Origin: Candidatus Poribacteria bacterium
Lineage (GTDB): Bacteria; Poribacteria; WGA-4E; WGA-3G
Direction of reading: 5' to 3'
DNA: 64,000 nt
Assembly (NCBI GenBank): GCA_965221425.1
Contig: OZ244889.1
Coordinates: forward strand, 3,077,415 to 3,141,414
Shown: positions 10,358-30,895 of the stretch, piece by piece
Layout: every line of letters starts with the position of its first letter
Position numbering within the stretch: the stretch's first letter is position 1
Translations under genes and position numbers: made by a program
Notes under the pieces: model-generated
Database searches by the model: none
What the model was told of the DNA's origin: nothing
Seen by the model: only the letters and a program-made list of their open reading frames with translations

Positions 10358-10384
10358 TACCAAAATCAAATGAAAGGAAACTTG

Positions 10385-12466: not shown

Positions 12467-12477
12467 AAGTTCAAAGC

Positions 12478-14506: not shown

Positions 14507-16297
14507 ATGAATATTTCACCTATTGATTGGGCAATTATTGTCGGCTATATTCTTTTTGCGCTTGGACTCGGTATCTATTTTTCTAAACGCGCTGGAAAAA
14601 ACATCGACGAATTTTTTATTTCTGGACGGAACCTGCCGTGGTGGTTAGCTGGTACATCTATGGTAGCAACAACCTTCGCGACAGATACACCGTTGGCAGT
14701 CACAAAGCTCGTAGTCAAAGAAGGGATTGCTGGCAATTGGTTATGGTGGAACGTTGTTTTGAGTGGTATGTTAGCCACATTCCTGTTTGCACGATTATGG
14801 CGCCGTTCCGAAATCATTACAGATGTTGAATTTACCGAACTACGCTACTCAGGACCATCTGCAAGTTTCCTGCGCGGTTTCCGCGCCCTTTATATCGGTT
14901 TACCGATTAACTGTATTACGATGGGATGGGTTATCCTCGCAATGCAGAAAATCGTTGTGTTGACCTTTGACCTCCAGGATGATGCAACTACAAAGATATT
15001 GGTAGTCTTGGGATGCCTACTGATTGCAGGTATCTATTGTGTATTATCAGGATTTTGGGGTGTTGTCATAACAGACATTGTACAGTTCGGCATGGCGATG
15101 GTAGGTTCAATCGCACTTGCAATTATCGCCGTTAATAAAATAGGCGGAATTGGCGCTCTCAAAGAAAAACTTATAGGTATCTATGGTGTAGAACATAACA
15201 TATTGAATTTCACTCCTGATTTCAGTGCAGGAAAAATGGCTATTATAACGTTTGGTGTCTATCTCGGCATGCAATGGTGGGCATCAAACGATGTAGATGG
15301 TACTGGTTTTGTTAAACAACGAATGTTTTCAGCACAAAATGAACGGCATTCACTTCTCGCTACATTGTGGTTCAACATTGCGCATTACACATTACGCCCG
15401 TGGCCGTGGATACTTGTTGCATTAGTCGCGATGGTGGCCTACCCCGGACTTGGTAACCCCGACCATGTTGATCCTGCTCTGCACGATGCCGAACTCGGCT
15501 ATCCAATGCTAATGCTTGATTATCTACCTGTTGGATTGCTGGGACTCATGCTCACTGCATTTTTGGCAGCATTCATGTCAACGATTGACACGCATCTGAA
15601 TTGGGGAGCATCCTATCTTGTTAACGATTTCTATAAACGTTTTTTTAAACCCGAAGCGACACCTAAACACTATGTTGCTGCCTCGCGCATCTCAGTAATA
15701 CTTATCATGCTGGTTGCAGGCGTAACAAGCTTATTTATGACTTCCATTACGGAGGCATGGAAATTTCTCATCGCACTAAACGCAGGGATCGGACTTGTGC
15801 AAATTCTACGATGGTACTGGTGGCGAATCAACGCATGGTCGGAAATATCTGCAATGGTAGCATCATTAATTGTTTCAATCATTGTGTTTATACATCCAGC
15901 AACGAAGGATGTTTTCGCATTCCAAATGCTAATTATTGTGCCAATTTCTACTATAGTCTGGATAGTCGTTACGTTCTTAACAGAACCTGTTTCGACTGAA
16001 ACGTTAACAAACTTCTATAACAAAGTTAGACCAAGTAAAAGTGGTTGGAAACTTATAGCAGCGGAGACAAAAGAAGCACCAGATGAAACAGATAGACAAA
16101 ACCACCAAACAGATTCTAAAACGCCTGCTTTGGTTAACTGGGTTATCGGGGTAGTCTTCATCTACTCATTCTTATTCAGTATCGGCAAACTCTTATTAGG
16201 TTTTACCGGAACTGGATTTATTTTTTTATTAATCGCAATTATTAGTGGGGCGATAATGTATTATAATTTACCGCGTAAAGAGAGAAACAACAATTGA
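14507..16297 (+). CDS. sodium:solute symporter family (SSF) transporter
   Basis: ~13 TM segments. SSF N-terminal consensus (GRNLPWWLAGTSMVATTFATDTPLAV). Confidence 0.85.
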   Translation: MNISPIDWAIIVGYILFALGLGIYFSKRAGKNIDEFFISGRNLPWWLAGTSMVATTFATDTPLAVTKLVVKEGIAGNWLWWNVVLSGMLATFLFARLWRRSEIITDVEFTELRYSGPSASFLRGFRALYIGLPINCITMGWVILAMQKIVVLTFDLQDDATTKILVVLGCLLIAGIYCVLSGFWGVVITDIVQFGMAMVGSIALAIIAVNKIGGIGALKEKLIGIYGVEHNILNFTPDFSAGKMAIITFGVYLGMQWWASNDVDGTGFVKQRMFSAQNERHSLLATLWFNIAHYTLRPWPWILVALVAMVAYPGLGNPDHVDPALHDAELGYPMLMLDYLPVGLLGLMLTAFLAAFMSTIDTHLNWGASYLVNDFYKRFFKPEATPKHYVAASRISVILIMLVAGVTSLFMTSITEAWKFLIALNAGIGLVQILRWYWWRINAWSEISAMVASLIVSIIVFIHPATKDVFAFQMLIIVPISTIVWIVVTFLTEPVSTETLTNFYNKVRPSKSGWKLIAAETKEAPDETDRQNHQTDSKTPALVNWVIGVVFIYSFLFSIGKLLLGFTGTGFIFLLIAIISGAIMYYNLPRKERNNN

Positions 16298-17046
16298 TAA
16301 GTGTAGGAATTATTCCAGCCCGATATGCTTCAAGCCGCTTTGAAGGAAAAGCATTAGCAGATATTTTTGGCAAACCGATGATCCAGCATGTCCATGAACG
16401 TGCTTGTAAATCAAAAATGCTAAGCCAAGTTATTGTTGCCACAGATGACCAACGTATCTATGATGCTGTTAAAGGCTTTGGTGGAAATGTTCAGATGACA
16501 GGCGAGTGTGCTACTGGAACCGATCGAGTGTCTGTCGTGGCTGAAAAACTGACATGTGATGTTGTTGTCAACGTACAAGGCGATGAACCATTGCTTGAAC
16601 CAGAACAGATTGATATGATGCTTCGACCTTTTATAGAAAGACCATCTGTCCAAGTTTGTACATTAAAAGAGCGAATTCACACGATGGAGGATTTTCTTGA
16701 TCGGAACGTCGTTAAAGTTGTTACTAATCTTGATGGGGATGCGTTGTACTTTTCAAGAAGTTCTATTCCCAACACACCGATAAACAAACAGCAAATCTTT
16801 GACGAAAACGCATTAGTATATCGGCATATTGGATTATATGCCTTTAGAAAAGAGCAACTACTTGCATTCACATCGTGGGAACGTACTCCTTATGAAATTG
16901 CTGAGGGTTTAGAACAGTTACGTTTTTTGGAACACGGAGTCCCTATTCATGTTGTTGAAACCGACACACCCGTTATTGGAGTTGATGTGCCTGCAGATTT
17001 GGAACGGGTAAAACAGATTTTAGAAAAGGGAGGCCCTCATTTTTGA
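16294..17046 (+). CDS. kdsB: 3-deoxy-manno-octulosonate cytidylyltransferase (CMP-KDO synthetase)
   Basis: N-terminal IIPARYASSRFEGKALADIFGKPMIQHV is the KdsB signature. TTG start overlaps the SSF stop (TTGA). Confidence 0.85.
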   Translation: MISVGIIPARYASSRFEGKALADIFGKPMIQHVHERACKSKMLSQVIVATDDQRIYDAVKGFGGNVQMTGECATGTDRVSVVAEKLTCDVVVNVQGDEPLLEPEQIDMMLRPFIERPSVQVCTLKERIHTMEDFLDRNVVKVVTNLDGDALYFSRSSIPNTPINKQQIFDENALVYRHIGLYAFRKEQLLAFTSWERTPYEIAEGLEQLRFLEHGVPIHVVETDTPVIGVDVPADLERVKQILEKGGPHF

Positions 17047-17056
17047 AGGGAAGAAA

Positions 17057-18670
17057 ATGACAAAATATATCTTTGTGACAGGCGGCGTTATCTCAGGAAT
17101 AGGCAAAGGCATTACAACCGCAGCGTTAGGCAGATTGCTCATTAACCGAGGCTTTAGAGTAAATGTCATCAAAATTGATCCATATCTGAATGTTGATGCG
17201 GGGGTGATGAATCCCTTCCAACACGGCGAGGTGTTTGTCACACACGATGGTGCTGAAACAGACTTAGACTTAGGCAATTATGAACGTTTTCTCGGCGTTG
17301 ACTTGAATAAACATTCTAACTTTACAACAGGTTCAGTTTATAAGGAAGTAATTGAGAAAGAACGACGGGGCGATTACCTCGGTCAAACGGTTCAATTGAT
17401 TCCACATATTACGGATGAAATTAAACACCGCATCTACCAGATTGGAAAAGATAGTGATGTTGACATCGTTATCACGGAAATCGGAGGCACTATCGGTGAT
17501 TTTGAAACACCCCCGTTTGTAGAAGCTATCCGACAAATGGCTGTGGAGGTCGGGCGCGAAAATACGTTGTTCCTCCACGTCTCGCTCATCTACACCTTAC
17601 CTAATGGTGAAAGCAAAAGTAAACCGACTCAGCATAGCATTAGGAAACTTCAAGAGTTAGGTATCCACCCGGATTTATTATTATGCCGCACGAGTCAACA
17701 TATTGATGATAGCGTCCGGAGAAAAATTGCGCTGCTCTGTGGTATCAGTGAAGATTTTATTTTGGAAGGTTTAGATACAAAATGCGTAGATGAAATTCCA
17801 CTCAACTTTGAAGAACAAGGCATGGGACATCTCGTCGCTAAAAAATTAGGTCTTGAGCGGCGCGCAACTTTGGATGCGGAATGGGTAGCCATGGTGGAAA
17901 GACTTAAAAATCCTAAGCATACCACGAACATCGCTATCGTAGGAAAATATACAACTGGAAACGATGCTTATATCAGTGTCCAAGAGGCTATTAAACATGG
18001 TGGCATAGCAAACGAAGCAGAAGTCCATATTGAATGGATAGAAGCTGAAATGTTGACAGACCATTCCAATCTTGATAAACTGTTTGAGAATATTGACGGA
18101 ATTTTGGTGCCCGGTGGATTTGGTGATCGTGGTATTGAAGGTATGATATTAGCGGCTAAATACGCGCGTGAAAACCGCATCCCTTACTTTGGGTTGTGCC
18201 TCGGCATGCAGTGTCTTGTAATTGAGTTTGCTCGAAACGTGGCGAACCTAAAAAATGCAAACAGCACCGAAGTTGATGAGGAAACACCGTATCCTGTTAT
18301 AGATTTGATGTTAGAACAACGTTCAATAGCCGACAAAGGGGCAACGATGCGGCTTGGACATTATCCTTGTGTTCTCAAGGAAGGGACCAAGAGTTACGAA
18401 GCATATCAACAACCTATTATTTTAGAACGGCATAGACATCGCTATGAATTGAATAACAACTACCGTTCGCAATTGAAAGAAGACGGCCTAAGTTTTAGTG
18501 GTGTATCACCCGACGGAAGCCTTGTTGAGATTGCTGAGGTGCCCGATCACCCATGGATGGTTGGTTCCCAATTTCATCCGGAATTTCAATCTAAACCCCT
18601 CACACCACACCCACTATTCCGTGAATTTATTGCAGCAGTACTGCGTTATCAGCAAGAAAAAACCGATTAG
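17057..18670 (+). CDS. pyrG: CTP synthase
   Basis: N-terminal KYIFVTGGVISGIGKGITTAALGRLL. Glutamine amidotransferase domain with GLCLGMQ catalytic Cys. Confidence 0.95.
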   Translation: MTKYIFVTGGVISGIGKGITTAALGRLLINRGFRVNVIKIDPYLNVDAGVMNPFQHGEVFVTHDGAETDLDLGNYERFLGVDLNKHSNFTTGSVYKEVIEKERRGDYLGQTVQLIPHITDEIKHRIYQIGKDSDVDIVITEIGGTIGDFETPPFVEAIRQMAVEVGRENTLFLHVSLIYTLPNGESKSKPTQHSIRKLQELGIHPDLLLCRTSQHIDDSVRRKIALLCGISEDFILEGLDTKCVDEIPLNFEEQGMGHLVAKKLGLERRATLDAEWVAMVERLKNPKHTTNIAIVGKYTTGNDAYISVQEAIKHGGIANEAEVHIEWIEAEMLTDHSNLDKLFENIDGILVPGGFGDRGIEGMILAAKYARENRIPYFGLCLGMQCLVIEFARNVANLKNANSTEVDEETPYPVIDLMLEQRSIADKGATMRLGHYPCVLKEGTKSYEAYQQPIILERHRHRYELNNNYRSQLKEDGLSFSGVSPDGSLVEIAEVPDHPWMVGSQFHPEFQSKPLTPHPLFREFIAAVLRYQQEKTD

Positions 18671-18681: not shown

Positions 18682-19941
18682 ATGGACAACGTTGCTACAG
18701 TTCGCTCTGGTGCTTGGCACGGAGATAACGAAGTGATGCTAACATTTCCAACCGGTTGGGAAGTGGAAATGTTGAAACCCAAGGACGCTCCTACACTTTC
18801 TGACGCACAAATTGAGCAGGCATTTGCAGAACCAATCGGGACAAAACGGATTTCTGAATTAGCAAAGGGGAAAAAGAGTGCTACCATCATCGTAGATGAC
18901 CTAAGCCGTCCGACCCCAGCATTTAAAGTAATTCCTTTTCTGTTGCGAGAACTCACGACAGCAGGGGTGCCAAAAGCAGAAATCAGATTTGTCGTTGGTG
19001 TCGGCGCACACCGTCCTATCTCCGAGGAAGAGATGGCAAAGAAAGTTGGAACTGACATCGCAGCAGAATATGAGATAACCAACCATAATTTCCTGAGCGG
19101 TGACCTTCGTGCCTTGGGACACCTTGAAAACGGCACACCTGTCTATATCAATCGGACTGTTGCAGATGCTGACTTCAAAATCTGCCTTGGTGGTATCTAT
19201 CCGCATAGCTCAGTCGGTTTTACGGGTGGTGCTAAACTTATTGTTCCCGGTACCGCAGGGTTTTCCACGATGTATTATTTCCATACCTTTCCACAGGGAC
19301 GTGGCCCCGCAGTGATTGAAGGGCAGAGCGATGAACCAGATCGTCGCGACACCATTGAAATGGCAGCGGCCGTGCTTGGGCTCGACGCTATCGCCAATGT
19401 TGTCCTTAATAGTCAACGTGAAATCTGTGGATTATTTGTAGGGGATTTCATAAAAGCACATCGTAAAGGCGCACATTTTGCGATGGATACTTATAAAACG
19501 AAAATCTCGGAAAAAACCCGCACAGAGAGTGATCTTGTTATAATTAACTGTTATCCACTTGATGCTGATGCTATTCAACTTGATAAAGCACTTGCCGCTT
19601 TTTCTTATTTTGAAGACGCTTGGACAATAGCACTTTATCCCGCAACCGATGGAACCTGCTTCCACGGATTGTTTGACAGACTTGATTATCAAAAGTATCT
19701 CCAGCAGAAAGTAGAGCACGTACCCACTAATCCATCACCCGCACCAAAACTTGGAAGACGATCTCAACTACATGTTTGGTCTGAGCATTTTGAAAGAGAT
19801 GATTTCTACAAAGAGTATCCATCCTCGCTTCTTTTCCGCGACTTAGATCAGTTAATTCGATTGTTGATACAGAAACTTCCTAAACGCGCCAAAGTTGCTA
19901 TTTTGCCTGTAGCAGGAATTCAAGTATTAACACCACACTAA
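18682..19941 (+). CDS. LarA-family (DUF2088) nickel-pincer-cofactor-dependent racemase/epimerase homolog, paralog 1
   Basis: IIVDDLSRPTPAFKVIPFLLREL..IRFVVGVGAHRPISEEE matches the LarA N-terminal domain pattern. 'GGAK' lysine precedes LIVPG, the position of the cofactor-tethering Lys in LarA (from memory, unverified). Confidence 0.7.
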   Translation: MDNVATVRSGAWHGDNEVMLTFPTGWEVEMLKPKDAPTLSDAQIEQAFAEPIGTKRISELAKGKKSATIIVDDLSRPTPAFKVIPFLLRELTTAGVPKAEIRFVVGVGAHRPISEEEMAKKVGTDIAAEYEITNHNFLSGDLRALGHLENGTPVYINRTVADADFKICLGGIYPHSSVGFTGGAKLIVPGTAGFSTMYYFHTFPQGRGPAVIEGQSDEPDRRDTIEMAAAVLGLDAIANVVLNSQREICGLFVGDFIKAHRKGAHFAMDTYKTKISEKTRTESDLVIINCYPLDADAIQLDKALAAFSYFEDAWTIALYPATDGTCFHGLFDRLDYQKYLQQKVEHVPTNPSPAPKLGRRSQLHVWSEHFERDDFYKEYPSSLLFRDLDQLIRLLIQKLPKRAKVAILPVAGIQVLTPH

Positions 19942-19996
19942 CAGGAAATCACTAATGTGTTGGATGTTTCTATAGAAGAATTGAATAAAAAATCTG

Positions 19997-20248
19997 ATGA
20001 CTAAAAAAAGAATTGCCACTGGCGTGGTACATAGAGTGCCAGCGGATCTACGAAAGACACTTATTTCTGCAAGTGCGGTGCAAGACGCATGGAATGACCT
20101 TACTCCCCTTGCCCGTAATGAATGGATTTGCTGGGTGACCTCCGTCAAAAAGCCGGAAACCAGAATACGTCGTATTGAGCGAGTGCGCACAGAGTTATTA
20201 GAAGGAAAACGTCGACCTTGTTGTTGGCCCGGTTGTCCTCACCGTTGA
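19997..20248 (+). CDS. YdeI/OmpD-associated (OmdA) family small protein
   Basis: C-terminal NEWICWVTSVKKPETRIRRIERV resembles the YdeI/OmdA family motif. Confidence 0.45.
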   Translation: MTKKRIATGVVHRVPADLRKTLISASAVQDAWNDLTPLARNEWICWVTSVKKPETRIRRIERVRTELLEGKRRPCCWPGCPHR

Positions 20249-20313
20249 AATAGGGAATCAGCGCGCAACATCAGTTGTTCGTTCAAATGGGTGTAAGAAA
20301 ATGGAGATCAGAC

Positions 20314-21573
20314 ATGAACAACACTGCAACGATCCACTCCCGTGCTTGGTATGGTGATGAGGAGTTAACGTTGAATTTTCCAAAGGGTTGGGAAGTAGAA
20401 ATGCTGGGACCAAAGGACGCACCAGCACTTTCTGACAAGCAGATGGAACGCGCGTTCGCTGAGCCAATTGGGACGCCACGCATTGCTGAACTTGCAAAAG
20501 GCAAAAAGAGTGCTGCCATTGTTGTAGATGACCTTAGCCGTCCTACCCCTGCAGCCGAAGTTATCCCGTTCCTACTACGTGAACTCATCTCAGCAGGTGT
20601 TCCAAAATCAGAAACCCGATTTGTCGTAGGCGGTGGGTCGCACCGACCTCTTACAGATGAAGAAATAGCAAAGAAAATTGGGGCTGACATTGCAGCAGAA
20701 TATGAGGTAACAAGTCATGATTTTATGAGTGGTGACCTGCGTGGATATGGAAGTCTTGAAAATGGCATGCCTATCTATATCAATAGAGTTGTTGCAGATG
20801 CGGATTTCAAAATCTGTTTGGGTGGCATCTATCCGCACGGTGCTGTCGGTTTTGGAGGCGGAGCAAAATTGATTGTCCCCGGTGTTTCTGGGTTCGCAAC
20901 GATGTTCTATTTTCATACCTTTTCACCGAGCCGTGGACATGCGGTCATTGAAAGAAAAGACAGCACCCCTGACCATCGAGATTTTGCGGAAGAAATTGCA
21001 GCTGTCATCGGTCTCGATGTTATCGCTAATGTTGTGCTAAATTCTCGACGCGAGATTTGTGGGTTGTTTGTTGGCGACTTTGTACAGGCACATCGCGCAG
21101 GGGCACATTTCGCTTTGGCAACATACAGTACAGAAATACCGATGCAATCCCGAAAAGAGACTGATCTGGTTGTGCTAAATTGTTATCCGCTTGATAGTGA
21201 CCCTATCCAAACAGGAAAAGCGTTGTGGGCATCCAGTTATTTTGAGAAGACATATAAAATGGCACTAAATCCTGCCAGCGATGGTATCTGCTACCATGGG
21301 TTATTTGATCAAATTGATTATAACCGTTTTCTTGAACAAAGAGCAGAGAAGATTCCGCCTGAACTCCCCGAACCTAAACTTGGAAATATTGATCAACTGC
21401 ACGTCTGGTCCGAAAATTTTCTCGTAGACGATTTTTATAAAAAACACCCAAATGCCCTCCTTTTCCGCGACTTGGAACAGCTTCTCCAACTGTTCTCTGA
21501 AAAACTTCCAGCAAAAGCGAAAGTCGCTGTCCTACCTTCAGCAGGAATTCAGGTATTAGCAAAGAACAAATAA
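20314..21573 (+). CDS. LarA-family (DUF2088) racemase/epimerase homolog, paralog 2
   Basis: Start moved to MNNTATIHSRAW (GGAG RBS 8 nt upstream) to match paralog 1. AIVVDDLSRPTPAAEVIPFLLREL..GGGSHRPLTDEE..GGGAKLIVPG. Confidence 0.7.
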   Translation: MNNTATIHSRAWYGDEELTLNFPKGWEVEMLGPKDAPALSDKQMERAFAEPIGTPRIAELAKGKKSAAIVVDDLSRPTPAAEVIPFLLRELISAGVPKSETRFVVGGGSHRPLTDEEIAKKIGADIAAEYEVTSHDFMSGDLRGYGSLENGMPIYINRVVADADFKICLGGIYPHGAVGFGGGAKLIVPGVSGFATMFYFHTFSPSRGHAVIERKDSTPDHRDFAEEIAAVIGLDVIANVVLNSRREICGLFVGDFVQAHRAGAHFALATYSTEIPMQSRKETDLVVLNCYPLDSDPIQTGKALWASSYFEKTYKMALNPASDGICYHGLFDQIDYNRFLEQRAEKIPPELPEPKLGNIDQLHVWSENFLVDDFYKKHPNALLFRDLEQLLQLFSEKLPAKAKVAVLPSAGIQVLAKNK

Positions 21574-21585
21574 CAAAGGACTCTT

Positions 21586-22128
21586 ATGCAATCTTCCTTC
21601 AGAAACTACCTACAGCGTGTAAATACCCTGCTTGGTAAATTTGAAATCGGTGTGTTATGTCTGATTGTGGCAATGCTGGTAGGACTGGCAGTCCTCAAAA
21701 TCGTCGCGCGTTACATATTGCCTCATTTAGGAATCCAATGGGTTTTGACATGGAGTGCCCCGATGTTGCAGCATTTAACTCTCTGGTTGTGTTTTTTTGG
21801 GGCAGCACTCGCCTCCTGTGAAAGACGACACATTAGTATAGACATTCTCAACCGAATTTTACCGAAACGTGTCATGCGTTTTAGTTCCTATATTATTGAT
21901 ATTCTCAGTCTGATTATCGTGAGTATTTTAGCCTATTTCGGTTTTGAGTTTCTTATGGAAGAACAGGAGAGTCCCGCAACACTGATAGGACCTATTCCGC
22001 TTTGGTGGGCAAAAACGATTATCCCGATAGGGTTTGTCCTTATCGGGATTCATTTGGTGCTGCAGATTTTTATCAATTTGACAGAACGTGAAAACGCTCA
22101 AGATAATATTGAAGGAGACTTGGAATAA
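21586..22128 (+). CDS. TRAP transporter small permease (DctQ-like), 4 TM
   Basis: 180 aa, four TM helices with DctQ family pattern (KIVARYILPHLG..W..ELT.WLCFFGAALASCERRHISIDIL). 12 bp after LarA-2 stop. Confidence 0.65.
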   Translation: MQSSFRNYLQRVNTLLGKFEIGVLCLIVAMLVGLAVLKIVARYILPHLGIQWVLTWSAPMLQHLTLWLCFFGAALASCERRHISIDILNRILPKRVMRFSSYIIDILSLIIVSILAYFGFEFLMEEQESPATLIGPIPLWWAKTIIPIGFVLIGIHLVLQIFINLTERENAQDNIEGDLE

Positions 22129-23435
22129 TGGGATTACTCATTGGCATCGGATTAGCAGCCTTCGCACTTCTTGGCGGCGCGCTGTTTGTTTTGCTCGGTG
22201 GGGCATCAATTATCGGATACGCCACTTATGCCGTATCAGAAGAAGAACCACTTTCAATGCTCCAAGCGATTCTAATTGAATTCAATAGTCTTACCGATAA
22301 TCCGTCTATTCTGATTATTCCGCTCTTTACGTTCGCTGGATATGTTATTGCCGAAGGAAAAGCGCCACAACGATTGGTTGGATTTGCGCGTGCAAGTGTC
22401 GGTTGGCTGCCGGGTGGTATCGCTATTGTAGTGCTTGGGACTTGTGCTTTTTTTACAACATTCACAGGGGCTTCTGGTATAACAATTGTAGCACTCGGCG
22501 GTTTGCTCTATCCTATCCTTAAACGTAGTTACAGTGAGCAATTCTCCCTCGGTTTGGTCACAGCTTCCGGCAGCATTGGGCTCCTGTTTCCACCAAGCAT
22601 CCCTCTCATCCTTTATGCCATTGTTGCTCAAGTCAGGATTGATACCATGTTCTTTGCTGGGATTATTCCGGGAATACTTATTCTCACCATCCTTAGCCTC
22701 TACTGCAGCGGATGGAGCGTTTTCAAGCGGACAGAGACGATCCAATTTAGTTTGTCAGATTTCGCACGCACACTCTGGGATGCTAAGTGGGAACTACTCT
22801 TACCATTTCTTGTATTAGGAGGCATCCTCTCAGGTAAGGTTCTGATTGATGAAGTTGCTGCATTAACAGTCATATATGTCTGTGTCGTAGAAATCTGTAT
22901 TCACCGATCAATTTCTGTAAAAAAGTTACCATATCTTGTCAAAGAGAGCATGTTGCTGGTCGGGGCAATCCTAATTATCCTCGGTCTCGCCTTGGGATTA
23001 AAAAGCTATTTGGTCACACTTGAAGTTCCCCAAAACGTCGTGGAGTGGATTCAATCCATAACTTCAAACCGAGTTATTACACTCATTGGTCTTAATATAT
23101 TCCTACTTATAGTTGGGTGTTTAGTGGACATCTTTTCCGCTATTGTTATTGTTGTCCCACTGCTTTTACCCATCGCTGAAGAACTCGGTATTAATAAAGC
23201 ACACCTCGGTATTATTATATTAACAAATCTTGAAATCGGTTACCTCACACCGCCAGTAGGAATGAATTTGTTTATTTCAAGCATGAAATTTGATAAATCG
23301 GTTGTCCTACTCTACAGGTCTGTTTTATTGTTTATCGGTTTGTTGTTAATAGCTTTAATACTTGTAACTTATATTCCAGAGTTGAGTCTATGGCTGCCGG
23401 AGGTACTTGGGAAAACGACAGAGTCGTTGTTTTGA
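22128..23435 (+). CDS. dctM: TRAP transporter large permease (DctM-like)
   Basis: 435 aa polytopic membrane protein. Start ATG overlaps the DctQ stop (ATAATGG), the typical QM coupling. Confidence 0.8.
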   Translation: MGLLIGIGLAAFALLGGALFVLLGGASIIGYATYAVSEEEPLSMLQAILIEFNSLTDNPSILIIPLFTFAGYVIAEGKAPQRLVGFARASVGWLPGGIAIVVLGTCAFFTTFTGASGITIVALGGLLYPILKRSYSEQFSLGLVTASGSIGLLFPPSIPLILYAIVAQVRIDTMFFAGIIPGILILTILSLYCSGWSVFKRTETIQFSLSDFARTLWDAKWELLLPFLVLGGILSGKVLIDEVAALTVIYVCVVEICIHRSISVKKLPYLVKESMLLVGAILIILGLALGLKSYLVTLEVPQNVVEWIQSITSNRVITLIGLNIFLLIVGCLVDIFSAIVIVVPLLLPIAEELGINKAHLGIIILTNLEIGYLTPPVGMNLFISSMKFDKSVVLLYRSVLLFIGLLLIALILVTYIPELSLWLPEVLGKTTESLF

Positions 23436-23545
23436 ACTGCCATAGACTGACTGTAAATATGGTGAACCTAAACTCCCTGATTTTTGCTGAGTTATCTAAA
23501 ATTTGAATTTTAGGCAACTTTACAATTTACAACCCTTGACAAATA

Positions 23546-23554
23546 TGTTATAAT
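23546..23554 (+). promoter_or_regulatory. extended -10-like element TGtTATAAT upstream of BMP gene
   Basis: 'atgttataat' lies 35 nt upstream of ATG 23589. The nearby TTGACA is only 7 nt away, so it is not a canonical -35. Promoter consensus for this lineage is unknown. Confidence 0.25.
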
Positions 23555-23588
23555 AGTCTCAGTCAATACTATACAGGAGAAACATTTT

Positions 23589-24626
23589 ATGAAACAAGTT
23601 TGTTGGTCAAATAAGATTAGCACAAAAGTTGTGCTGTGCATAGGATGCCTATTCGCTCTCGGATCCCTGCTTGTTGGATGTGCAGATACAACGACAAAAG
23701 ATGGATTTAAGGTTGCGATGCTGCTTCCAGCCGATATTACCGACGCAGGGTGGAATGCTTTAGCTTATGAAGGGCTTCAAGCAATCGAAAAGGAACTTGG
23801 GGCAACAGTTAAATATGTTGTGAGTGGCACACCTACCGAACAAGAACAACACTTCCGTTTTTACGCGGAAAAAGGGTACGACCTCGTCTTTGGGCACGGT
23901 TATGAATTTCAAGGCCCCGCAAAAGCGGTAGCCTCCGATTTTCCTGACACAATTTTTATTACGTCTTCGGGAGGCACTATTACTGACAATATTTCCCCAG
24001 TGAATTTTCGCGTTGAGCAACCCGCCTACCTTTTAGGTATTATGGCAGGCATGATGACACAAGAAAATAAACTTGGCACTATTGGCGGCGATGAAATTCC
24101 TTCTGTCAAGAGTACTTTTATCGCTTTTGAAGCTGGCGCGAAAAGTGTTAATCCTGATATAGAGGTCCGCAAGGTATATGTGGGCAATTGGGAAGATGCT
24201 GTGAAAGGCAAGGAACTCTCATTAGCACTTATTAATGAAGGTGTTGACTTTCTGTTCCCAAATGCAGATGCGGCAGGACTTGGCGCTTTTCACGCTGCGG
24301 AAAACGCCCAAGCAGAGGGAAAAACTGTATACACGTTCGGTGCAAATCGAGACAAAAGTGAAATTTCCGCAACAACAGTGCTTGCAAACGCTGTGATTAC
24401 CCCGAAAGCCTTTGTTAAGATTGCTAAAGTCGTTAAAGAAGGTAAATTCAAAAAACAGATCTACACATTCAACATGCTGACAGATCAAGCAATCACGCTA
24501 ACTTATAACCCTAAGCTGAAAGATAAAATACCGCAAGAGGTGCTTGATGCCGTTGAAGCGGCAAAAGCCAAAATCCTTTCTGGTGAACTCGAGGTTCCGC
24601 AAATTGATTTCACTGAAGAGGAATGA
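23589..24626 (+). CDS. BMP-family (PnrA/Med-like) substrate-binding lipoprotein
   Basis: Lipoprotein signal LLVGC. BMP-family blocks (FKVAMLLPADITDAGWNALAYEGL..YDLVFGHGYEFQGPAKAVASDFPDTIFITSSGG). AGGAGA RBS. Confidence 0.75.
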   Translation: MKQVCWSNKISTKVVLCIGCLFALGSLLVGCADTTTKDGFKVAMLLPADITDAGWNALAYEGLQAIEKELGATVKYVVSGTPTEQEQHFRFYAEKGYDLVFGHGYEFQGPAKAVASDFPDTIFITSSGGTITDNISPVNFRVEQPAYLLGIMAGMMTQENKLGTIGGDEIPSVKSTFIAFEAGAKSVNPDIEVRKVYVGNWEDAVKGKELSLALINEGVDFLFPNADAAGLGAFHAAENAQAEGKTVYTFGANRDKSEISATTVLANAVITPKAFVKIAKVVKEGKFKKQIYTFNMLTDQAITLTYNPKLKDKIPQEVLDAVEAAKAKILSGELEVPQIDFTEEE

Positions 24627-24680
24627 TATTTGACTTATTCTGCACAATCTGTAACCCCCGGTAAGATGGAAGCACGGACT

Positions 24681-27377
24681 ATGGCGAAAAAAATGCAAAT
24701 TGATGACGTTGAAGTCACCTTTTCCGAGGGAGAAACTGTGCTTGAAGTTGCACAACGGCATCAAAAAGATATTCCGACTCTTTGTTACGATCCACGCCTG
24801 GAACCGTTTGGTGGATGCCGCTTGTGCATCGTTGAATTAGAAGGTGCACGTAATCCTGTTGCATCTTGTACAACAAAAGCCACCGCTGGGATGGTTATCC
24901 GTACTGCAACCGATACAATAGAAACGTATCGGAAGACACTGCTTGAGATGGTGATTGGTGAAAATAGAGAGATAGATGTCCATCCATTACGCGGCTACGC
25001 TGCCAGCGAGTTGATGAGTCTTCGTGACAGGTACGAAATCGAGAATACAAATATAATAGGGGCAAAATCCGGCACCAGCAAAGCCGATGATAATCCTTTT
25101 ATACTCAGAGATTATGAGCTCTGTATCTCTTGTTACCGTTGTGTAAGGGTGTGTGCTGAACAAGAGGGTGATCATGCTATCAATGTGATGAACCGCGGGT
25201 TTCACACACAGATCACAACAGAATTTGATGGTCTTCTCAAAGACTCCGCTTGTACTTTTTGTGGACAATGTATCCAGACCTGTCCGACAGGTGCACTTGC
25301 CGACAAAAAAGCGCTCCGCGCTGTTGATGAGGTTACTGACGCTGCACTCAACAAAACCCGTACCATTTGCCCTTATTGCGGCGTTGGTTGTTCTGTAGAT
25401 GTGCTAACAAATGACGAAAAAATTGTTGGTATCCATCCTGCTATGGACGGTCCTGCTAATCAAGGCGCCCTCTGTGTTAAAGGACAGTTCGCTTACGACT
25501 TCGTTCAACATCCAGATCGATTGAAAACACCGCTTGTCCGTGGTGAAGATGGTGAACTCCACGAAGCCACGTGGGAAGATGCGCTTGATAAAGCTGCTGA
25601 AGGTTTTAGGAACGTCCATGCCGGGTATGGCAGATACAGCATCTACGGTATCGCTTCTGGGCGTGCGCCGAGTGAAGCTGCGTATCTGATGCAGAAGTTT
25701 ATCCGTGCAGGTTTTGGCACAAACTATATTGACAATTGCAGCCGTGCCTGACACGCTCCGACTGTTGCCGGTCTGGCAGCAACAATCGGACGTGGGGCGA
25801 TGTCTAATCCGCTCGTTGATATGCAGAAACCTGACGTTATTTTCTGCATCGGAACAAATATGACAGAATGCCATCCGGTTGCAGCAACTGGATTGAAAAA
25901 GGCAATTGCACGTGGAGCCAAACTCATTGTGGCAGACCCAAGACGCATCGGGTTAGCAGAGATGTCCCATCTCTATCTGCCGCTTCGTGTCGGATCAGAT
26001 ACTGCGCTACTGCTTGGAATGGCGCACGTTATTGCTCGTGAAGGGTTAATTGATGAAGAATTCATCGAAAATCGCACAACAGGATTTGATGATTTCTTTG
26101 AACATATCAGTCAATGGACACCAGAATGGGCAGAATCTATCACAGGTGTGCCAGCAAAGGACATTGAAACGGCGGCAATGTGGTACGGCACTGCAAATAA
26201 AAGTGCTATCTACTATACGCTTGGTATTACAGAACATATCTGCGGTGTGGAGAATGTTCAGAGCTTGTGCAACCTTGCACTGATGACAGGCAATATCGGA
26301 CGCGAGGGAACAGGTATTAACCCGATGCGTGGGCAAAATAACATCCAAGGCGCGGGAGATAGCGGTGCGCTACCTAACAACTATCCAGGTTTTCAATCTG
26401 TCACTGATCCCAAACATCAGACAAAATTTAAAGAGGTATACGGTAGAGAGATTGACCTTGAGAAGGGCATCACGAAGGTTACTGCCTTGGAACTTTGCGG
26501 TGATAGTATCCATGCAATGCTCATTGATGGTGAAAATACATTGCTGTCCGACCCTGACCGTGAACATTGTGAGCATGCACTTCGTTCTTTAGAGCATCTC
26601 GTAGTAGTTGACATCTTCCTGACCGAAACCGCAGAACTTGCCGATATAGTGCTGCCCGCAACAGCCTGGGGCGAAACGGATGGGGTTTGCACTAATACAG
26701 AACGCCGCGTCCAACGAATGCGTGCTGCTGCCCCGCCTCCCGGTGAGGCAAAACCTGATTGGTGGATTATCTGTCAAATTGCAAAGCGACTCGGATTCGA
26801 AGGGTTTGATTTTGACGCGCCAAAACCGATTTTCAACGAACTTTGCCACCTTTCGCCTATCTACGCAGGATTGGATTGGGAACGCATTGAAAAAAGTGAA
26901 TATCAGTGGCCTGTTCCACATAAAGAACACCCTGGCACACCGCGCTTACACGAAGATACATTCGTGAATGGAAAAGGAATCTTTTCCAACGTTCACTACC
27001 GAGACCCTGCTGAGACAATTAGTGATGAGTTCCCTGTATGGCTAACAACAGGAAGGCGTTTGCAATCCTATCACACACGGACTCAAACGGGTAGAGCGCA
27101 GGGAATTGATTATCTGTTACCCGAAGAATCCCTTGAAGTAAATCCTGCCGACCTCCAAAAATGGAAATTGATGGATGGTGAATGGTGTAAAATGAGCAGT
27201 GCACGGGGGAGTATCAATATTAAAGTCAAAGCAACAAACCGATCACCGCGAGGCACCGTTTTTGCCAGTTTCAGTTTCGCCGATGTGCCTGTCAATCTTT
27301 TAACAGGTTCAGGCTACGATCCCATTACGCACACCGCTGAGTTGAAGGTGTGTCCAGTGAAATTAGAACCACTATAA
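24681..27377 (+). CDS. selenocysteine-containing formate dehydrogenase catalytic subunit (FdhF/FdsA-like: 2Fe-2S + 4Fe-4S N-terminal domains + Mo-bisPGD domain); in-frame TGA at 25749-25751 read as Sec
   Basis: ORFs 24630-25751 and 25800-27377 are in the same frame. Joined through the TGA they read ..NYIDNCSRA-U-HAPTVAGLAATIGRGAMSNP.., collinear with E. coli FdhF ..NCARV-U-HGPSVAGL..GNGAMSN. Downstream regions also match FdhF (RGQNNIQGAGDSGALPNNYPGFQ; IVLPATAWGETDGVCTNTERR). 5' start is ambiguous (ATG at 24666, 24681 or 24693). Confidence 0.85.
25752..25790 (+). promoter_or_regulatory. bacterial SECIS-like hairpin directing Sec insertion at UGA 25749-25751
   Basis: UGA + 11 nt, then the stem 25763-25769/25775-25781 with apical loop GGUCU. 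This has the same spacing and the same GGUC(U) loop as the E. coli fdhF SECIS (..GGUUGCAGGUCUGCACC..). Confidence 0.6.
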
Positions 27378-27387
27378 GGAGAACAAA

Positions 27388-27684
27388 ATGAAATGGAAAA
27401 CACGTTGGTTAGAAGAAAATGAAGATGTTGATACATTAAAAGCGCAATTACAATCAGAGGGATTCGACCCATATCAGTGGTCTGGTCGTCCAGGTGGTGC
27501 ATATCTTGATTATATTCATACTCAGGATGAAGTTGTTTGTGTGTTGTCTGGTACTGCAGAAGCAAAAGTTGCCGATGCGGAAGGCACTGTGGAAAAAGGG
27601 GACCGAATTGATGTTCCTGCAAATACTTATCATTCTTTAACGGTGACAAGTGATGAACCGCTGGTTGTTTTGACGGGTATGTGA
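27388..27684 (+). CDS. small cupin-domain protein
   Basis: 98 aa. Cupin-like beta-barrel motifs (VVCVLSGTAEAKV..GDRIDVPANTYHSL). 10 nt downstream of the FDH stop; possible co-transcription. Confidence 0.45.
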   Translation: MKWKTRWLEENEDVDTLKAQLQSEGFDPYQWSGRPGGAYLDYIHTQDEVVCVLSGTAEAKVADAEGTVEKGDRIDVPANTYHSLTVTSDEPLVVLTGM

Positions 27685-27883
27685 AAATCTAAATAGCAGT
27701 CTGCTGTTAGTTATCAGCAGTCGGCAAGAAACCTAAAGCGAGAACTATTTAAAGTCGGTTCGTATATAAATCATCCTTCAATAGATCAAAAGCCGATAGA
27801 CTATTCCGAAACAGTTCGCGTTGGAACAAAAAATATAATCATCGTTGAAGAGTTTATTAAGTTTTAAAAGGGAAGTTTTGACT

Positions 27884-28612
27884 ATGGGTAAGGTCATCGT
27901 GATAACTTCTGGAAAGAGGGGAGTCGGTAAAACGACATCAACTGCAAACCTTGGTGCCGCCTTAGCGATGATTGGCAAAACAGTAGTTATGGTTGACGCT
28001 GACATTGGCTTGCGTAATCTTGATGTTGTAATGGGATTAGAGAGTCGAATAGTTTATACGTCTATGGATGTAATTGAAAAACGATGTGATCTTAATAAAG
28101 CCCTCGTAAAGGACCGACGTGTTGAAGGTTTAACGCTACTCGCTGCTTCGCAATGGAACAGAAGAAACGATATCAAACCGGAACAGATGCAGGAAATTTA
28201 TGAAAAACTCAAAGAAGATTATGACTTTGTTCTTGTTGACTCCCCCGCAGGAGTTGAGCAAGGATTTCAAAGTGCTGCCGTCGGTGCTAACGAAGCTATC
28301 ATCATCACAACCCCTGACGTATCAGCTATCCGAGATGCTGACAGGACTATTGACCTCTTGCAAAATCAAGGAATTGAATCTATCAACTTGATATTGAATC
28401 GATTGTCACCAACACTCGTTGAAAAAGAGAATAAGATTAGTAAGAATGACGTATTAGATATGCTTAACATTGATCTTCTCGGTGTTGTGCCTGAGGATAC
28501 TGGCATTTTCACCTCTACGAACCGCGGTGTGCCGCTTGTTTATAATGAAGGATCGTCGGGAGCTGAGGCGTATATGCGGATAGCACGCCGTATGACGGGA
28601 CACATACTTTAA
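27884..28612 (+). CDS. minD: MinD/ParA-family P-loop ATPase (MinD-like), orphan without MinC/MinE
   Basis: Deviant Walker A GKVIVITSGKRGVGKTT. Downstream MinD-like blocks (VVMVDADIGLRNLD; DFVLVDSPAG). GGGAAG RBS. Confidence 0.7.
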   Translation: MGKVIVITSGKRGVGKTTSTANLGAALAMIGKTVVMVDADIGLRNLDVVMGLESRIVYTSMDVIEKRCDLNKALVKDRRVEGLTLLAASQWNRRNDIKPEQMQEIYEKLKEDYDFVLVDSPAGVEQGFQSAAVGANEAIIITTPDVSAIRDADRTIDLLQNQGIESINLILNRLSPTLVEKENKISKNDVLDMLNIDLLGVVPEDTGIFTSTNRGVPLVYNEGSSGAEAYMRIARRMTGHIL

Positions 28613-28654
28613 TGCCTACTTTTGCACTTCACTATAAATAGAAAGGAAACATAT

Positions 28655-30142
28655 ATGAACATTACTGTCGAAATTGGCGATTTTCGTCAATCAGAAACCG
28701 ATGCTGTGCTTATCCCTGTGCTTGAAGATGACTTCCACAATGAGTTAATCTTAGCCGCTGACGCTGCTTTAGAGGGACGTATCCAAGCGTTTTTGAATCT
28801 TGGTGACTTCAAAGGTAAACCGAAGACAACCAGTGTGCTTTATACAAACGGTGCTATAACTGCCCCACGTATCATCTTGGTAGGTCTCGGTGTATATGCA
28901 GAACTCAATGCGGAAAAAGTACGCCAAGTCGCTGGACATACCGCTCGTCAGGCACGCGATATGGGACTGAAATCTATCACTGTTCCCATTCCCCCCGAAA
29001 CACAGGACGATTGGGCACAAGCAGCCGTTGAGGCAAGTCTTCTCTCACTCTATGAATTTAAACAACACAAAACACAAAAAGACGATAATGAAGACAAAGA
29101 TAAAACACTTGAATCTATGTCTCTTCTCGTAGGAAGTAAGGCAGAAAAATCGTCCCTGGAACGTATTGTTGAAAGAGGACAGACGATTGCTAAAGGTACT
29201 ATCCTTGCTCGCGATCTCAGCAACCAACCCGGGAACCACCTTACACCGACCCTACTTGCTGAAAAGGCTGAGGAGGTAGCAGAAACGGTGGGACTCAACT
29301 GCACAGTTTTTGACAAACCGACACTTGAGGAAAAAGGTTTCCGCACACTGTTAGCCGTTGCGCAAGGCAGTGCCGAAGATCCGCGCTTCATCATTTTGGA
29401 ATATACCCCTGAAGGAGAAGGACACGATACCGTAGCACTCGTTGGAAAGGGGATTACCTTTGACACGGGTGGCATTTCACTTAAATCTGGAAGCGGTATG
29501 CACGAAATGAAACATGACATGTCTGGTGCTGCAGCGGTTTTAGGCGCGATGCAGGTAATCGGACACCTGAAACCCAACGTACGCGTTATCGGTATAATTG
29601 CGACAACAGAAAACATGCCCGGATCAACCGCAATTAAACCGGGAGACGTTGTCACCTCCTACGGTGGAAAAACAATTGAAATCCTCAATACCGATGCCGA
29701 GGGGAGGCTAATTTTGGCTGATGCACTCGGATGGACTGCCCAGTATGAACCGCAAGGTGTTATTGATTTAGCTACGCTTACCGGTGCTGTAATTACCTGT
29801 CTCGGACATATCGCCGCAGGAGCAATGGGAACTGATGACACCTTAATGGAAAAAATAAAGAAGGCAGCTGAAAAAACGCATGAACGGGTCTGGGAATTAC
29901 CGCTTTGGGACGATTATGATGAAGGGGTAAAAAGTAAAGTTGCCGATGTGCAGAACATTGGGGATGGCACTGCTGGCACACTTGCAGGTGGCGCATTTCT
30001 GAAGAAATTTGCTGAAGGATACCCATGGGTTCACCTTGATATTGCAGGTACTGCTTGGGGAGTGAAAAATTCTACCTATATCCCAGAAGGAGCGTCTGGC
30101 TACGGTGTTCGGTTGTTGGTGCAATTGGTTGAAGATTGGTAG
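28655..30142 (+). CDS. pepA: leucyl aminopeptidase (M17)
   Basis: NTDAEGRLILADAL and VALVGKGITFDTGG signatures. GAAAGGAAA RBS before MNITVEI. Confidence 0.9.
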   Translation: MNITVEIGDFRQSETDAVLIPVLEDDFHNELILAADAALEGRIQAFLNLGDFKGKPKTTSVLYTNGAITAPRIILVGLGVYAELNAEKVRQVAGHTARQARDMGLKSITVPIPPETQDDWAQAAVEASLLSLYEFKQHKTQKDDNEDKDKTLESMSLLVGSKAEKSSLERIVERGQTIAKGTILARDLSNQPGNHLTPTLLAEKAEEVAETVGLNCTVFDKPTLEEKGFRTLLAVAQGSAEDPRFIILEYTPEGEGHDTVALVGKGITFDTGGISLKSGSGMHEMKHDMSGAAAVLGAMQVIGHLKPNVRVIGIIATTENMPGSTAIKPGDVVTSYGGKTIEILNTDAEGRLILADALGWTAQYEPQGVIDLATLTGAVITCLGHIAAGAMGTDDTLMEKIKKAAEKTHERVWELPLWDDYDEGVKSKVADVQNIGDGTAGTLAGGAFLKKFAEGYPWVHLDIAGTAWGVKNSTYIPEGASGYGVRLLVQLVEDW

Positions 30143-30865: not shown

Positions 30866-30895
30866 ATGCCCGTGCCAAACCTGAAAGGGGTAAAA

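What the first reader, a model, noticed from the sequence alone, without database searches (positions are those of the whole stretch)
18682..27684. Contiguous locus of two LarA-family proteins, a TRAP permease lacking its binding protein, a BMP lipoprotein, Sec-FDH and a cupin: candidate uncharacterised hydroxy-acid uptake and conversion system
Two DUF2088/LarA paralogs (18682-19941 and 20314-21573) retain the GGAK..PG lysine context expected for covalent nickel-pincer cofactor binding. They flank a YdeI-like gene.

The second paralog is followed 12 bp later by translationally coupled dctQ-dctM TRAP permease genes, with no DctP or TAXI substrate-binding gene. The only binding-protein gene nearby is a BMP-family lipoprotein (23589-24626), a family normally paired with ABC transporters. 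It is followed within 4-50 bp by the Sec-FDH-like Mo enzyme and a cupin.

No larB/larC/larE cofactor-biosynthesis genes are in the window.

A LarA-TRAP operon suggests uptake of a 2-hydroxy-carboxylate that is racemised or epimerised. The neighbouring molybdo-selenoenzyme and the D-2-hydroxyacid dehydrogenase elsewhere in the window would fit a pathway feeding on such acids. A BMP protein serving a TRAP permease would itself be unprecedented.
Basis: inference. Interest (0 to 1): 0.65.

Follow-up and report, generated by a model that had tools for sequence, protein, structure and literature searches.

The report
Poribacterial LarA pair with binding-protein-less TRAP permease
The stretch holds two separate gene blocks from a sponge-symbiont (Poribacteria) genome: a phylum-conserved pair of nickel-dependent hydroxy-acid racemase-like enzymes joined to a TRAP permease with no nearby binding protein, and an unrelated lipoprotein/formate-dehydrogenase block that sits next to it only in some lineages, so it is not one new pathway.

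Summary
The window comes from a Candidatus Poribacteria genome.

I compared it with 80 poribacterial species genomes. The conserved unit is kdsB-pyrG-larA(-larA)-dctQ-dctM. DctQM follows LarA in 79 of 80 genomes. No DctP-like gene lies within 10 kb in any of them.

Both LarA paralogs keep every catalytic, cofactor-binding and carboxylate-binding residue. They form two old lineages, with H-S-S or H-G-A/S after the catalytic histidine. They belong to an uncharacterised LarA clade that lacks the W358/T359 specificity segment.

Bmp-FdhA(Sec)-cupin-PepA is a different block. It follows DctM in only 17 of 61 assessable genomes. In the four orthologous blocks examined at other genomic positions it keeps the same order. 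Two of these lie beside a canonical BMP-type ABC transporter. A strong promoter-like site separates it from dctM here.

The idea of a BMP protein serving TRAP, and of a single LarA-TRAP-BMP-FDH-cupin pathway, is therefore not supported. LarA-TRAP linkage is already documented for another LarA group, there with DctP.

What remains modestly interesting is the phylum-wide absence of a binding-protein gene next to this TRAP permease, and the unknown substrate, possibly a sugar acid.

The parts
16294..17046 (+). kdsB (CMP-Kdo synthetase); first gene of the conserved co-oriented unit
   Evidence: NCBIfam TIGR00466 198.6 bits (cut-off 155.2) and NF003952 300 bits. Found upstream of LarA in 68 of 71 assessable poribacterial loci.
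17057..18670 (+). pyrG (CTP synthase). Its stop is 11 nt before the LarA1 start.
   Evidence: TIGR00337 771 bits. GGAGAGG ribosome-binding site, then ATG at 18682. Conserved upstream in 68 of 71 loci.
18682..19941 (+). LarA paralog 1, 'H-S-S type': putative nickel-pincer-dependent 2-hydroxyacid racemase/epimerase
   Evidence: Lar_N E 1.1e-51. Best solved relative is malate racemase Mar2 6d6z, E 2e-43. The upstream copy has S-S after the catalytic His in 63 of 63 two-copy loci, and all key residues are invariant.
19997..20248 (+). OmdA/YdeI-like small gene; lineage-specific insert between the paralogs
   Evidence: PF13376 E 1.6e-17. Among the 80 related genomes it is present only in L003 and L067. 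Other genomes carry different inserts, such as an SNase-like gene in L001.
20314..21573 (+). LarA paralog 2, 'H-G-A/S type'; the copy always adjacent to dctQ
   Evidence: Lar_N E 2.2e-49. AlphaFold model pLDDT 91.3. All 19 significant PDB fold matches are LarA-family chains, TM up to 0.80. Residue conservation.
21586..22128 (+). TRAP small membrane subunit DctQ
   Evidence: PF04290 E 2.1e-23. Starts 12 nt after the LarA2 stop.
22128..23435 (+). TRAP large membrane subunit DctM; start overlaps the dctQ stop (TAATG)
   Evidence: PF06808 E 1.6e-73. TIGR00786 313 bits, cut-off 268. Overlap shown.
23526..23554 (+). Promoter-like site (TTTACA-17-TATAAT, extended -10 TG) in the dctM-bmp gap; marks the junction between the two blocks
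   Evidence: 11 of 12 consensus matches. The junction position agrees with the synteny break seen.
23589..24626 (+). BMP/PnrA-family lipoprotein; ABC-type substrate-binding protein; first gene of the separate block
   Evidence: PF02608 E 3.1e-58. Lipobox LLVGC. Orthologs lie next to ABC ATPase and permease genes in L087 and L098.
24681..27377 (+). Selenocysteine-containing formate dehydrogenase alpha subunit with an N-terminal NuoG-like Fe-S domain; TGA at 25749-25751
   Evidence: Translation shows ...NCSRA*HAPT.... Pfam Fer2_4, Fer4, Molybdop_Fe4S4, Molybdopterin and Molydop_binding. TIGR01591 gives 156 + 551 bits for the two halves.
25746..25804 (+). Bacterial SECIS-like hairpin directly after the UGA
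   Evidence: Rfam SECIS_3 53.9 bits, E 3.5e-10, below the gathering score of 63. Hairpin -23.3 kcal/mol, z -2.2.
27388..27684 (+). Small cupin that always follows FdhA in Poribacteria
   Evidence: Cupin_2 E 3.4e-10. 81-84% identical orthologs follow FdhA in L086 and L001, and a Cupin_2 gene also follows FdhA in L087, L098 and L099.
28622..30142 (+). pepA (M17 leucyl aminopeptidase); last gene of the Bmp-FdhA-cupin-PepA syntenic block
   Evidence: Peptidase_M17 E 1.4e-122. Follows the cupin in L086, L087, L098 and L099 and in loci.

Best explanation
The interval spans two independent gene blocks of a Candidatus Poribacteria chromosome.

Block 1 is a phylum-conserved, tightly spaced unit: kdsB-pyrG-larA(H-S-S type)-larA(H-G-A/S type)-dctQ-dctM.
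- The two LarA proteins are predicted nickel-pincer-nucleotide enzymes that invert C2 of a 2-hydroxy-carboxylate.
- They belong to an uncharacterised LarA clade with small residues where lactate racemase has F175/F176, and without the W358/T359 specificity segment. This suggests a roomier pocket.
- DctQM is the membrane part of a TRAP carboxylate importer, and most likely supplies the substrate. A sugar acid or another polar hydroxy acid from the sponge host is my best guess.
- The periplasmic binding protein that TRAP systems need is not encoded nearby. It is presumably encoded elsewhere in the genome.

Block 2 is Bmp-FdhA(Sec)-cupin-PepA, a separate syntenic block. Its BMP lipoprotein belongs to an ABC transporter. 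A rearrangement in one poribacterial sublineage placed it downstream of dctM.

Shown: gene identities, residue conservation, synteny statistics and the separateness of the blocks.
Inferred: co-transcription, the functional coupling of LarA with DctQM, the substrate class, and the existence of a distant binding-protein gene.
For: Organism: the closest homologs of LarA2, Bmp and DctM are all Poribacteria.

Conservation of block 1:
- DctQ-DctM lies directly after the LarA2 ortholog in 79 of 80 species genomes.
- kdsB and pyrG lie upstream in 68 of 71 assessable loci.
- Spacers are 11-12 nt and dctQ/dctM overlap.

LarA competence:
- The equivalents of Lp D72, R75, H108, H174, K184, H200, Q295 and K298 are invariant in 146 poribacterial sequences.
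- The same residues align with the solved LarA structures.
- LarA fold model: pLDDT 91.3, TM up to 0.80 to 8ezf/5huq/9eid.

Two old paralog lineages: upstream copy S-S in 63 of 63; downstream copy G in 62 of 63, followed by A or S.

Uncharacterised clade:
- Best NCBIfam LarAH model scores 238 bits against a cut-off of 500.
- The Lp 357-360 segment is deleted. The corresponding region, residues 346-361, is low-confidence coil in the model.

Sugar-acid hint: a 43%-identical relative sits between a DHDPS-family aldolase and a split UxaA/GarD-type dehydratase, next to an ABC sugar transporter and aldo-keto reductases.

Separateness of block 2:
- It follows dctM in only 17 of 61 assessable loci.
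- At least 17 different downstream neighbours were seen. The commonest is a convergent LamG-like gene, in 30 loci.
- The block is found intact elsewhere in L086, L087, L098 and L099. L087 and L098 have divergent ABC ATPase and permease genes.
- A promoter-like site lies in the gap.
Against: - No binding protein was found. TRAP permeases are thought to depend on one (review PMC5812351), so DctQM function here is unproven.
- The NPN biosynthesis genes larB/C/E are not in the window, and I could not search the rest of the genome.
- The most divergent poribacterial locus (L081) has kdsB-pyrG-X-larA but no dctQM.
- About 70 non-poribacterial relatives of this LarA clade have no TRAP genes within 8 kb.
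- The LarA-DctQM link could therefore be inherited synteny rather than function.
- The substrate guess rests on one relative's neighbourhood. Neighbour families of the other relatives are heterogeneous.
- My DctP detector was a small profile built from six proteobacterial DctPs, so a very divergent binding protein could be missed.
Confidence: 0.62

Rival explanations
1. First reader's model. LarA x2, DctQM, Bmp, Sec-FDH and the cupin form one hydroxy-acid uptake and conversion system, with the BMP lipoprotein acting as the binding protein of the TRAP permease.
For: - The genes are co-oriented and contiguous in the window.
- The same order is kept in the closest relatives, for example L001, L067 and L005.
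- No DctP or TAXI gene lies nearby.
Against: - Bmp-FdhA-cupin is absent downstream of dctM in 44 of 61 assessable genomes.
- In L086, L087, L098 and L099 the block lies elsewhere without any dctQM. In L087 and L098 it is beside canonical BMP-type ABC transporter genes.
- The dctM-bmp gap is 153 bp and carries a near-consensus promoter-like site.
- BMP proteins are established ABC-transporter binding proteins for nucleosides (PMC7093131).
Confidence: 0.03
2. The LarA-DctQM adjacency is inherited synteny with no shared function. LarA acts on an internally produced hydroxy acid. DctQM is an unrelated, possibly decaying or differently partnered, permease.
For: - Poribacteria keep long stretches of this region in the same order regardless of function, including kdsB, pyrG and the LamG genes.
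- L081 has LarA without DctQM.
- Non-poribacterial relatives of this LarA clade never have TRAP neighbours.
- No binding protein is present.
Against: - The breakpoint directly after dctM has been used many times, giving at least 17 different neighbours.
- Inserts accumulate between the two larA genes.
- Yet larA2-dctQ stays close in most genomes: the median distance from the end of the LarA2 match to the start of the DctQ match is 34 nt.
- DctM remains 74-97% identical and full length, so it is under purifying selection.
- LarA-TRAP pairing recurs independently in LarAH group 22.
Confidence: 0.2
3. The LarA paralogs work with KdsB/PyrG in cell-envelope sugar-acid metabolism, for example by epimerising an aldonic or ulosonic-acid-related intermediate. 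DctQM would then be secondary.
For: - kdsB-pyrG-larA is the most deeply conserved part. It is present even in L081, which lacks dctQM.
- Only 11 nt separate the pyrG stop from the larA start.
- From my own knowledge: LarC, which makes the LarA cofactor, uses CTP.
Against: - KdsB and PyrG pass the equivalog cut-offs for housekeeping enzymes.
- From my own knowledge: kdsB-pyrG operons also exist in bacteria without LarA.
- Kdo is a 2-keto acid, not a 2-hydroxy acid, so it is not a LarA-type substrate.
- Relatives of this LarA clade outside Poribacteria are not next to kdsB or pyrG.
Confidence: 0.08

Closest known systems
LarA superfamily of nickel-pincer-nucleotide 2-hydroxyacid racemases/epimerases (L. 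plantarum LarA 5HUQ; malate racemase Mar2 6D6Z; I. pallida LarA 9EIA)
   Same: - Lar_N domain and overall fold.
- Both catalytic histidines, the cofactor-tethering lysine, the nickel-ligand histidine and the phosphate-binding arginine.
- The Q/K pair that binds the carboxylate.
   Different: - Only about 25% identical to solved members.
- Far below every curated LarAH equivalog cut-off.
- S-S or G-A instead of F175/F176.
- The W358/T359 segment used to predict substrate class (PMC11770544) is deleted.
- Present as two conserved tandem paralogs.
LarAH group 22 neighbourhoods (Desguin et al. 2020, Sci Rep, Table S1): LarA homolog with a complete TRAP system and sugar-acid enzymes
   Same: A LarA-family gene next to TRAP permease genes, implying import of a hydroxy or sugar acid followed by C2 inversion.
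   Different: - Group 22 neighbourhoods include the DctP binding protein (30% association) and dehydratase, kinase and isomerase genes.
- Here DctP is absent within 10 kb in all 80 genomes, and no catabolic enzymes are adjacent.
- The poribacterial LarA scores best against the MAR and LAR models (190-238 bits), not the hexonate-epimerase model (23-26 bits).
DctPQM-type TRAP transporters (e.g. the SiaPQM and DctPQM systems covered in review PMC5812351)
   Same: Separate DctQ (4-TM class) and DctM subunits with overlapping genes. DctM passes TIGR00786.
   Different: - No DctP or TAXI gene in the operon, in the 64-kb window, or within 10 kb in related genomes.
- The nearest non-poribacterial DctM homologs (33-39% identical) all sit in complete DctPQM operons.
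BMP/PnrA-family ABC nucleoside transporters (B. burgdorferi BmpD, T. pallidum PnrA)
   Same: - The Bmp gene product has the PF02608 domain and a lipoprotein signal.
- Orthologs in L087 and L098 neighbour a double-domain ABC ATPase and two BPD_transp_2 permeases.
   Different: - In this window the ABC genes are not adjacent.
- In Poribacteria the gene is always followed by FdhA-cupin-PepA, an association with no known rationale.

Membership tests
LarA superfamily (NPN-dependent 2-hydroxyacid racemase/epimerase) | Lar_N domain and two-domain LarA fold | tested here: met
   PF09861 E 1e-52 and 2e-50. AlphaFold model pLDDT 91.3. Top 19 PDB matches are all LarA family, TM up to 0.80.
LarA superfamily (NPN-dependent 2-hydroxyacid racemase/epimerase) | Two catalytic histidines (Lp H108, H174) | tested here: met
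   Aligned. Invariant in 146 poribacterial sequences.
LarA superfamily (NPN-dependent 2-hydroxyacid racemase/epimerase) | Cofactor-binding residues: Lys184 (covalent tether), His200 (Ni ligand), Arg75 | tested here: met
   K185, H201 and R76 in LarA2 numbering. Invariant.
LarA superfamily (NPN-dependent 2-hydroxyacid racemase/epimerase) | Substrate carboxylate-binding Gln295/Lys298 | tested here: met
   Q299 and K302, invariant in Poribacteria.
LarA superfamily (NPN-dependent 2-hydroxyacid racemase/epimerase) | NPN biosynthesis genes larB, larC, larE in the same genome | not testable with these tools
   None in the 64-kb window. Whole poribacterial genomes could not be searched.
Characterised LarAH subgroups (LAR, MAR, HGR, GntE, HHR) | Score above the curated NCBIfam equivalog cut-off, and the subgroup's residues at Lp 175/176/358/359 | tested here: not met
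   Best score is NF052593 (MAR), 238 and 230 bits against a cut-off of 500. Residues are S-S or G-A at 175/176, and 357-360 is deleted. Rules taken from PMC11770544.
TRAP transporter (tripartite) | DctQ and DctM membrane subunits | tested here: met
   PF04290 and PF06808. TIGR00786 313 bits, cut-off 268.
TRAP transporter (tripartite) | Cognate DctP- or TAXI-type binding protein encoded with the permease | tested here: not met
   No Pfam hit in any ORF of 120 aa or more that is not nested inside a larger ORF. A DctP profile and phmmer gave zero hits at E<=10 and E<=1 respectively in 2402 ORFs from the window plus 87 loci, 1.69 Mb. TAXI was tested only in the window.
BMP/PnrA-type ABC substrate-binding lipoprotein | PF02608 domain with lipoprotein signal | tested here: met
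   E 3.1e-58. Lipobox LLVG|C.
BMP/PnrA-type ABC substrate-binding lipoprotein | Genetic association with a double-domain ABC ATPase and two BPD_transp_2 permeases | tested here: inconclusive
   Not in this window. Present divergently next to orthologs in L087 and L098. Absent in L086 and L099.
Selenocysteine formate dehydrogenase alpha subunit | In-frame UGA at the active-site Cys/Sec position, followed by a SECIS hairpin | tested here: met
   SRA-U-HAP context. SECIS_3 E 3.5e-10, though below the gathering score. Hairpin z -2.2. FdhD is also in the window.

The most novel reading that the evidence does not exclude
The poribacterial DctQM is a TRAP permease that works without a DctP/TAXI protein, or with an unconventional partner. 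It would be dedicated to feeding two specialised LarA enzymes that define a new substrate class of the nickel-pincer racemase family, for example sponge-derived sugar acids or other hydroxy acids.
Probability: 0.1. Interest if true: 0.65.

Novelty: new member of a known kind. Interest (0 to 1): 0.3.

Why it matters
If the LarA-DctQM unit is functional, it marks a hydroxy-acid or sugar-acid that nearly all sponge-associated Poribacteria import and stereo-invert. That would be a small but concrete clue to what these uncultivated symbionts take from their host.

The two conserved paralogs are ready-made candidates for extending the substrate map of nickel-pincer enzymes.

The consistent absence of a binding-protein gene gives a defined case for asking whether a TRAP permease can use a distant or non-canonical partner.

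The analysis also removes a tempting but wrong idea, a BMP protein serving a TRAP system. It shows that contiguity in a single genome was misleading here.

Tried and rejected
- An exact-sequence look-up of LarA2 found no contig.
- The third protein search, with DctM, returned only poribacterial orthologs, so it gave no substrate clue.
- The nearest plasmid DctM homologs (33-39% identical) sit in operons of varied function, including aromatic meta-cleavage and quinate/protocatechuate. No specificity can be inferred from them.
- I tested whether the cupin is a LarA partner, because a 59%-identical LarA in L083 is followed by a cupin. The two cupins are only 17% identical, so I dropped this.
- The 112-aa gene after the L094 LarA is a SAF domain, not a cupin.
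- Mapping the published specificity positions W358/T359 failed, because that segment is absent in this clade.
- Neighbour-family enrichment around 24 of the closest non-poribacterial relatives (39-46% identical to the query P0125) gave no recurrent family; the maximum was 3 of 79 ORFs.
- No riboswitch or other Rfam element lies upstream of larA or bmp.
- Literature searches for Poribacteria with lactate racemase or TRAP, and for binding-protein-independent TRAP, found nothing relevant.
- My script under-counted DctQM-positive loci (73). In six genomes dctQ overlaps the end of the LarA match. The table gives 79 of 80.

Full report
**What is there**

ORF listing and Pfam/NCBIfam scans show a long run of + strand genes:
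- an SSF-family symporter, 14507-16297
- kdsB, 16294-17046
- pyrG, 17057-18670
- LarA1, 18682-19941
- an OmdA/YdeI-like gene, 19997-20248
- LarA2, 20314-21573
- dctQ, 21586-22128
- dctM, 22128-23435
- a BMP lipoprotein, 23589-24626
- a formate dehydrogenase alpha subunit, about 24681-27377, with an in-frame TGA at 25749-25751
- a small cupin, 27388-27684
- a MinD-type ATPase, 27845-28612
- pepA, 28622-30142
- queF, 30866-31291

The descriptive part of the finding is therefore correct. The UGA is followed by a hairpin. The hairpin matches Rfam SECIS_3 with E 3.5e-10, although below the gathering score. FdhD lies elsewhere in the window. Pfam scans of every ORF of 120 aa or more that is not nested inside a larger ORF found no DctP, TAXI, LarB, LarC or LarE.

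**Source organism**

The closest homologs of LarA2, Bmp and DctM are all from Candidatus Poribacteria, at 77-97% identity. A scan of one genome per species returned 80 poribacterial loci.

**The LarA proteins**

The two copies are 68% identical. The closest solved relatives are malate racemase Mar2, L. plantarum LarA and the Isosphaera LarA, at E 1e-36 to 1e-43.

All residues that define the mechanism are present. In L. plantarum numbering these are D72, R75, H108, H174, K184, H200, Q295 and K298. They are invariant in 146 poribacterial sequences.

An AlphaFold model of LarA2 is confident (pLDDT 91.3). Its 19 significant PDB matches are all LarA-family chains.

The duplication is old. In 63 two-copy loci the upstream copy always has S-S after the catalytic histidine. 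The downstream copy has G followed by A or S.

The proteins score far below every curated LarAH subgroup model: 238 bits against a cut-off of 500. The segment that carries W358/T359 in lactate racemase is deleted. It is replaced by a low-confidence coil. A 2024 survey uses those positions to predict substrate class (PMC11770544), so that rule cannot be applied. This is an uncharacterised LarA clade with what looks like a more open pocket.

**Which neighbours are conserved**

I ran tblastn of the window's proteins against the 80 species loci.
- dctQ-dctM lies directly after the LarA2 ortholog in 79 of 80.
- kdsB-pyrG lies upstream in 68 of 71 assessable loci.
- Bmp-FdhA-cupin follows dctM in only 17 of 61 assessable loci.
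- YdeI is found in 2 of 80.

Downstream of dctM there are at least 17 different neighbours. The commonest is a convergent LamG-like gene, in 30 loci.

The one exception is the most divergent locus, L081. It keeps kdsB-pyrG-X-larA but has no dctQM.

**The Bmp block**

I examined four genomes in which Bmp orthologs lie away from dctQM. Three of these share a contig with a LarA locus that has no Bmp after dctM. In all four the same Bmp-FdhA-cupin-PepA order recurs.
- In L087 and L098 the block is divergently adjacent to a DUF6807 gene, a double-ABC_tran ATPase and two BPD_transp_2 permeases. That is the normal partner set for BMP binding proteins (PMC7093131).
- In L086 it is preceded by a transposase.
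- In the window, the 153-bp dctM-bmp gap holds a near-consensus promoter-like site.

The BMP protein therefore belongs to an ABC system. It ended up beside dctM through a lineage-specific rearrangement.

**The missing TRAP binding protein**

I built a small profile from six DctP proteins. They came from plasmid DctPQM operons that hold the nearest non-poribacterial DctM homologs. I searched it, and each DctP separately, against 2402 six-frame ORFs from the window and 87 loci, 1.69 Mb in total. There were no hits (E<=10 for the profile, E<=1 for the single sequences).

The absence of an adjacent DctP is therefore a phylum-wide feature, not an accident of this window. Whether a cognate protein is encoded elsewhere could not be tested.

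**Beyond Poribacteria**

A metagenome scan gave about 70 non-poribacterial relatives of this LarA clade. None has DctQ, DctM or DctP within 8 kb. Their neighbour families are heterogeneous.

One 43%-identical relative (L094) sits in a clear sugar-acid cluster. The cluster holds aldo-keto reductases, an ABC sugar transporter, a DHDPS-family aldolase and a split UxaA/GarD-type dehydratase. This is the only substrate hint.

A LarA-TRAP association is already on record for LarAH group 22, where DctP is included (Desguin et al. 2020, Table S1).

**Conclusion**

The best-supported reading is two modules.
- Module 1 is kdsB-pyrG-larA-larA-dctQM. The LarA pair probably inverts C2 of a carboxylate imported by DctQM. 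This is an inference from conserved tight linkage. The binding protein and the cofactor-synthesis genes remain unlocated.
- Module 2 is Bmp-FdhA(Sec)-cupin-PepA, which is unrelated to module 1.

The finding is a new member of known kinds. Two modest open points remain: the binding-protein-less TRAP permease conserved across a phylum, and the unknown substrates of two conserved LarA paralogs.

Noticed in passing
window 23589-30142; L086, L087, L098, L099: Bmp-FdhA(Sec)-cupin-PepA is a deeply conserved poribacterial block wherever it sits. L098 has three tandem Bmp copies. Why a BMP binding-protein gene always directly precedes a formate dehydrogenase gene is unexplained.
   Followed up: partly
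window 27845-28612: A MinD-type ATPase (TIGR01968, 329 bits) lies between the cupin and pepA. It has no counterpart at this position in any of the 82 related loci, and no minC or minE lies beside it. It looks like a lineage-specific insertion.
   Followed up: partly
window 30231-30322: A long hairpin or palindrome between pepA and queF matches miRNA-precursor covariance models on both strands (E 2e-4 and 5e-4). It is probably a terminator or a small repeat element.
   Followed up: no
window 13537-14334 (-); loci L017-L073: Secreted Laminin_G_3 (ConA-like) proteins flank the kdsB...dctM unit in most Poribacteria. There are one to three tandem copies upstream on the minus strand, and often a distant convergent copy just after dctM.
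   Followed up: partly
window 19942-20313; L001 9136-9828; L006: The spacer between the two larA genes is an insertion hotspot. It holds YdeI-like here and in L003 and L067, an SNase-like gene in L001, and more than 3 kb in L006.
   Followed up: partly
window 52052-53005 (-): An FdhD/NarQ-family gene, the sulfur-transfer factor for formate dehydrogenase maturation, lies about 25 kb from fdhA.
   Followed up: no
window 4852-13338: Two tandem TonB-dependent receptors are followed by an orphan Peripla_BP_6 (LivJ-like) binding protein and two SAM methyltransferases. The binding-protein and methyltransferase part is conserved in L001.
   Followed up: no
L094 275-8531: A 43%-identical LarA relative sits inside a sugar-acid catabolic cluster: aldo-keto reductases, an ABC sugar transporter, a DHDPS-family aldolase and a SAF plus GD_AH dehydratase. 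It is a good candidate for a new aldonate or aldarate 2-epimerase.
   Followed up: partly
window 56286-58186: Three tandem Hsp20 genes. An aquaporin (MIP) gene and a uridine-kinase-like gene lie nearby. The same PRK-Hsp20-MIP neighbourhood appears downstream of the Bmp block in L086.
   Followed up: no
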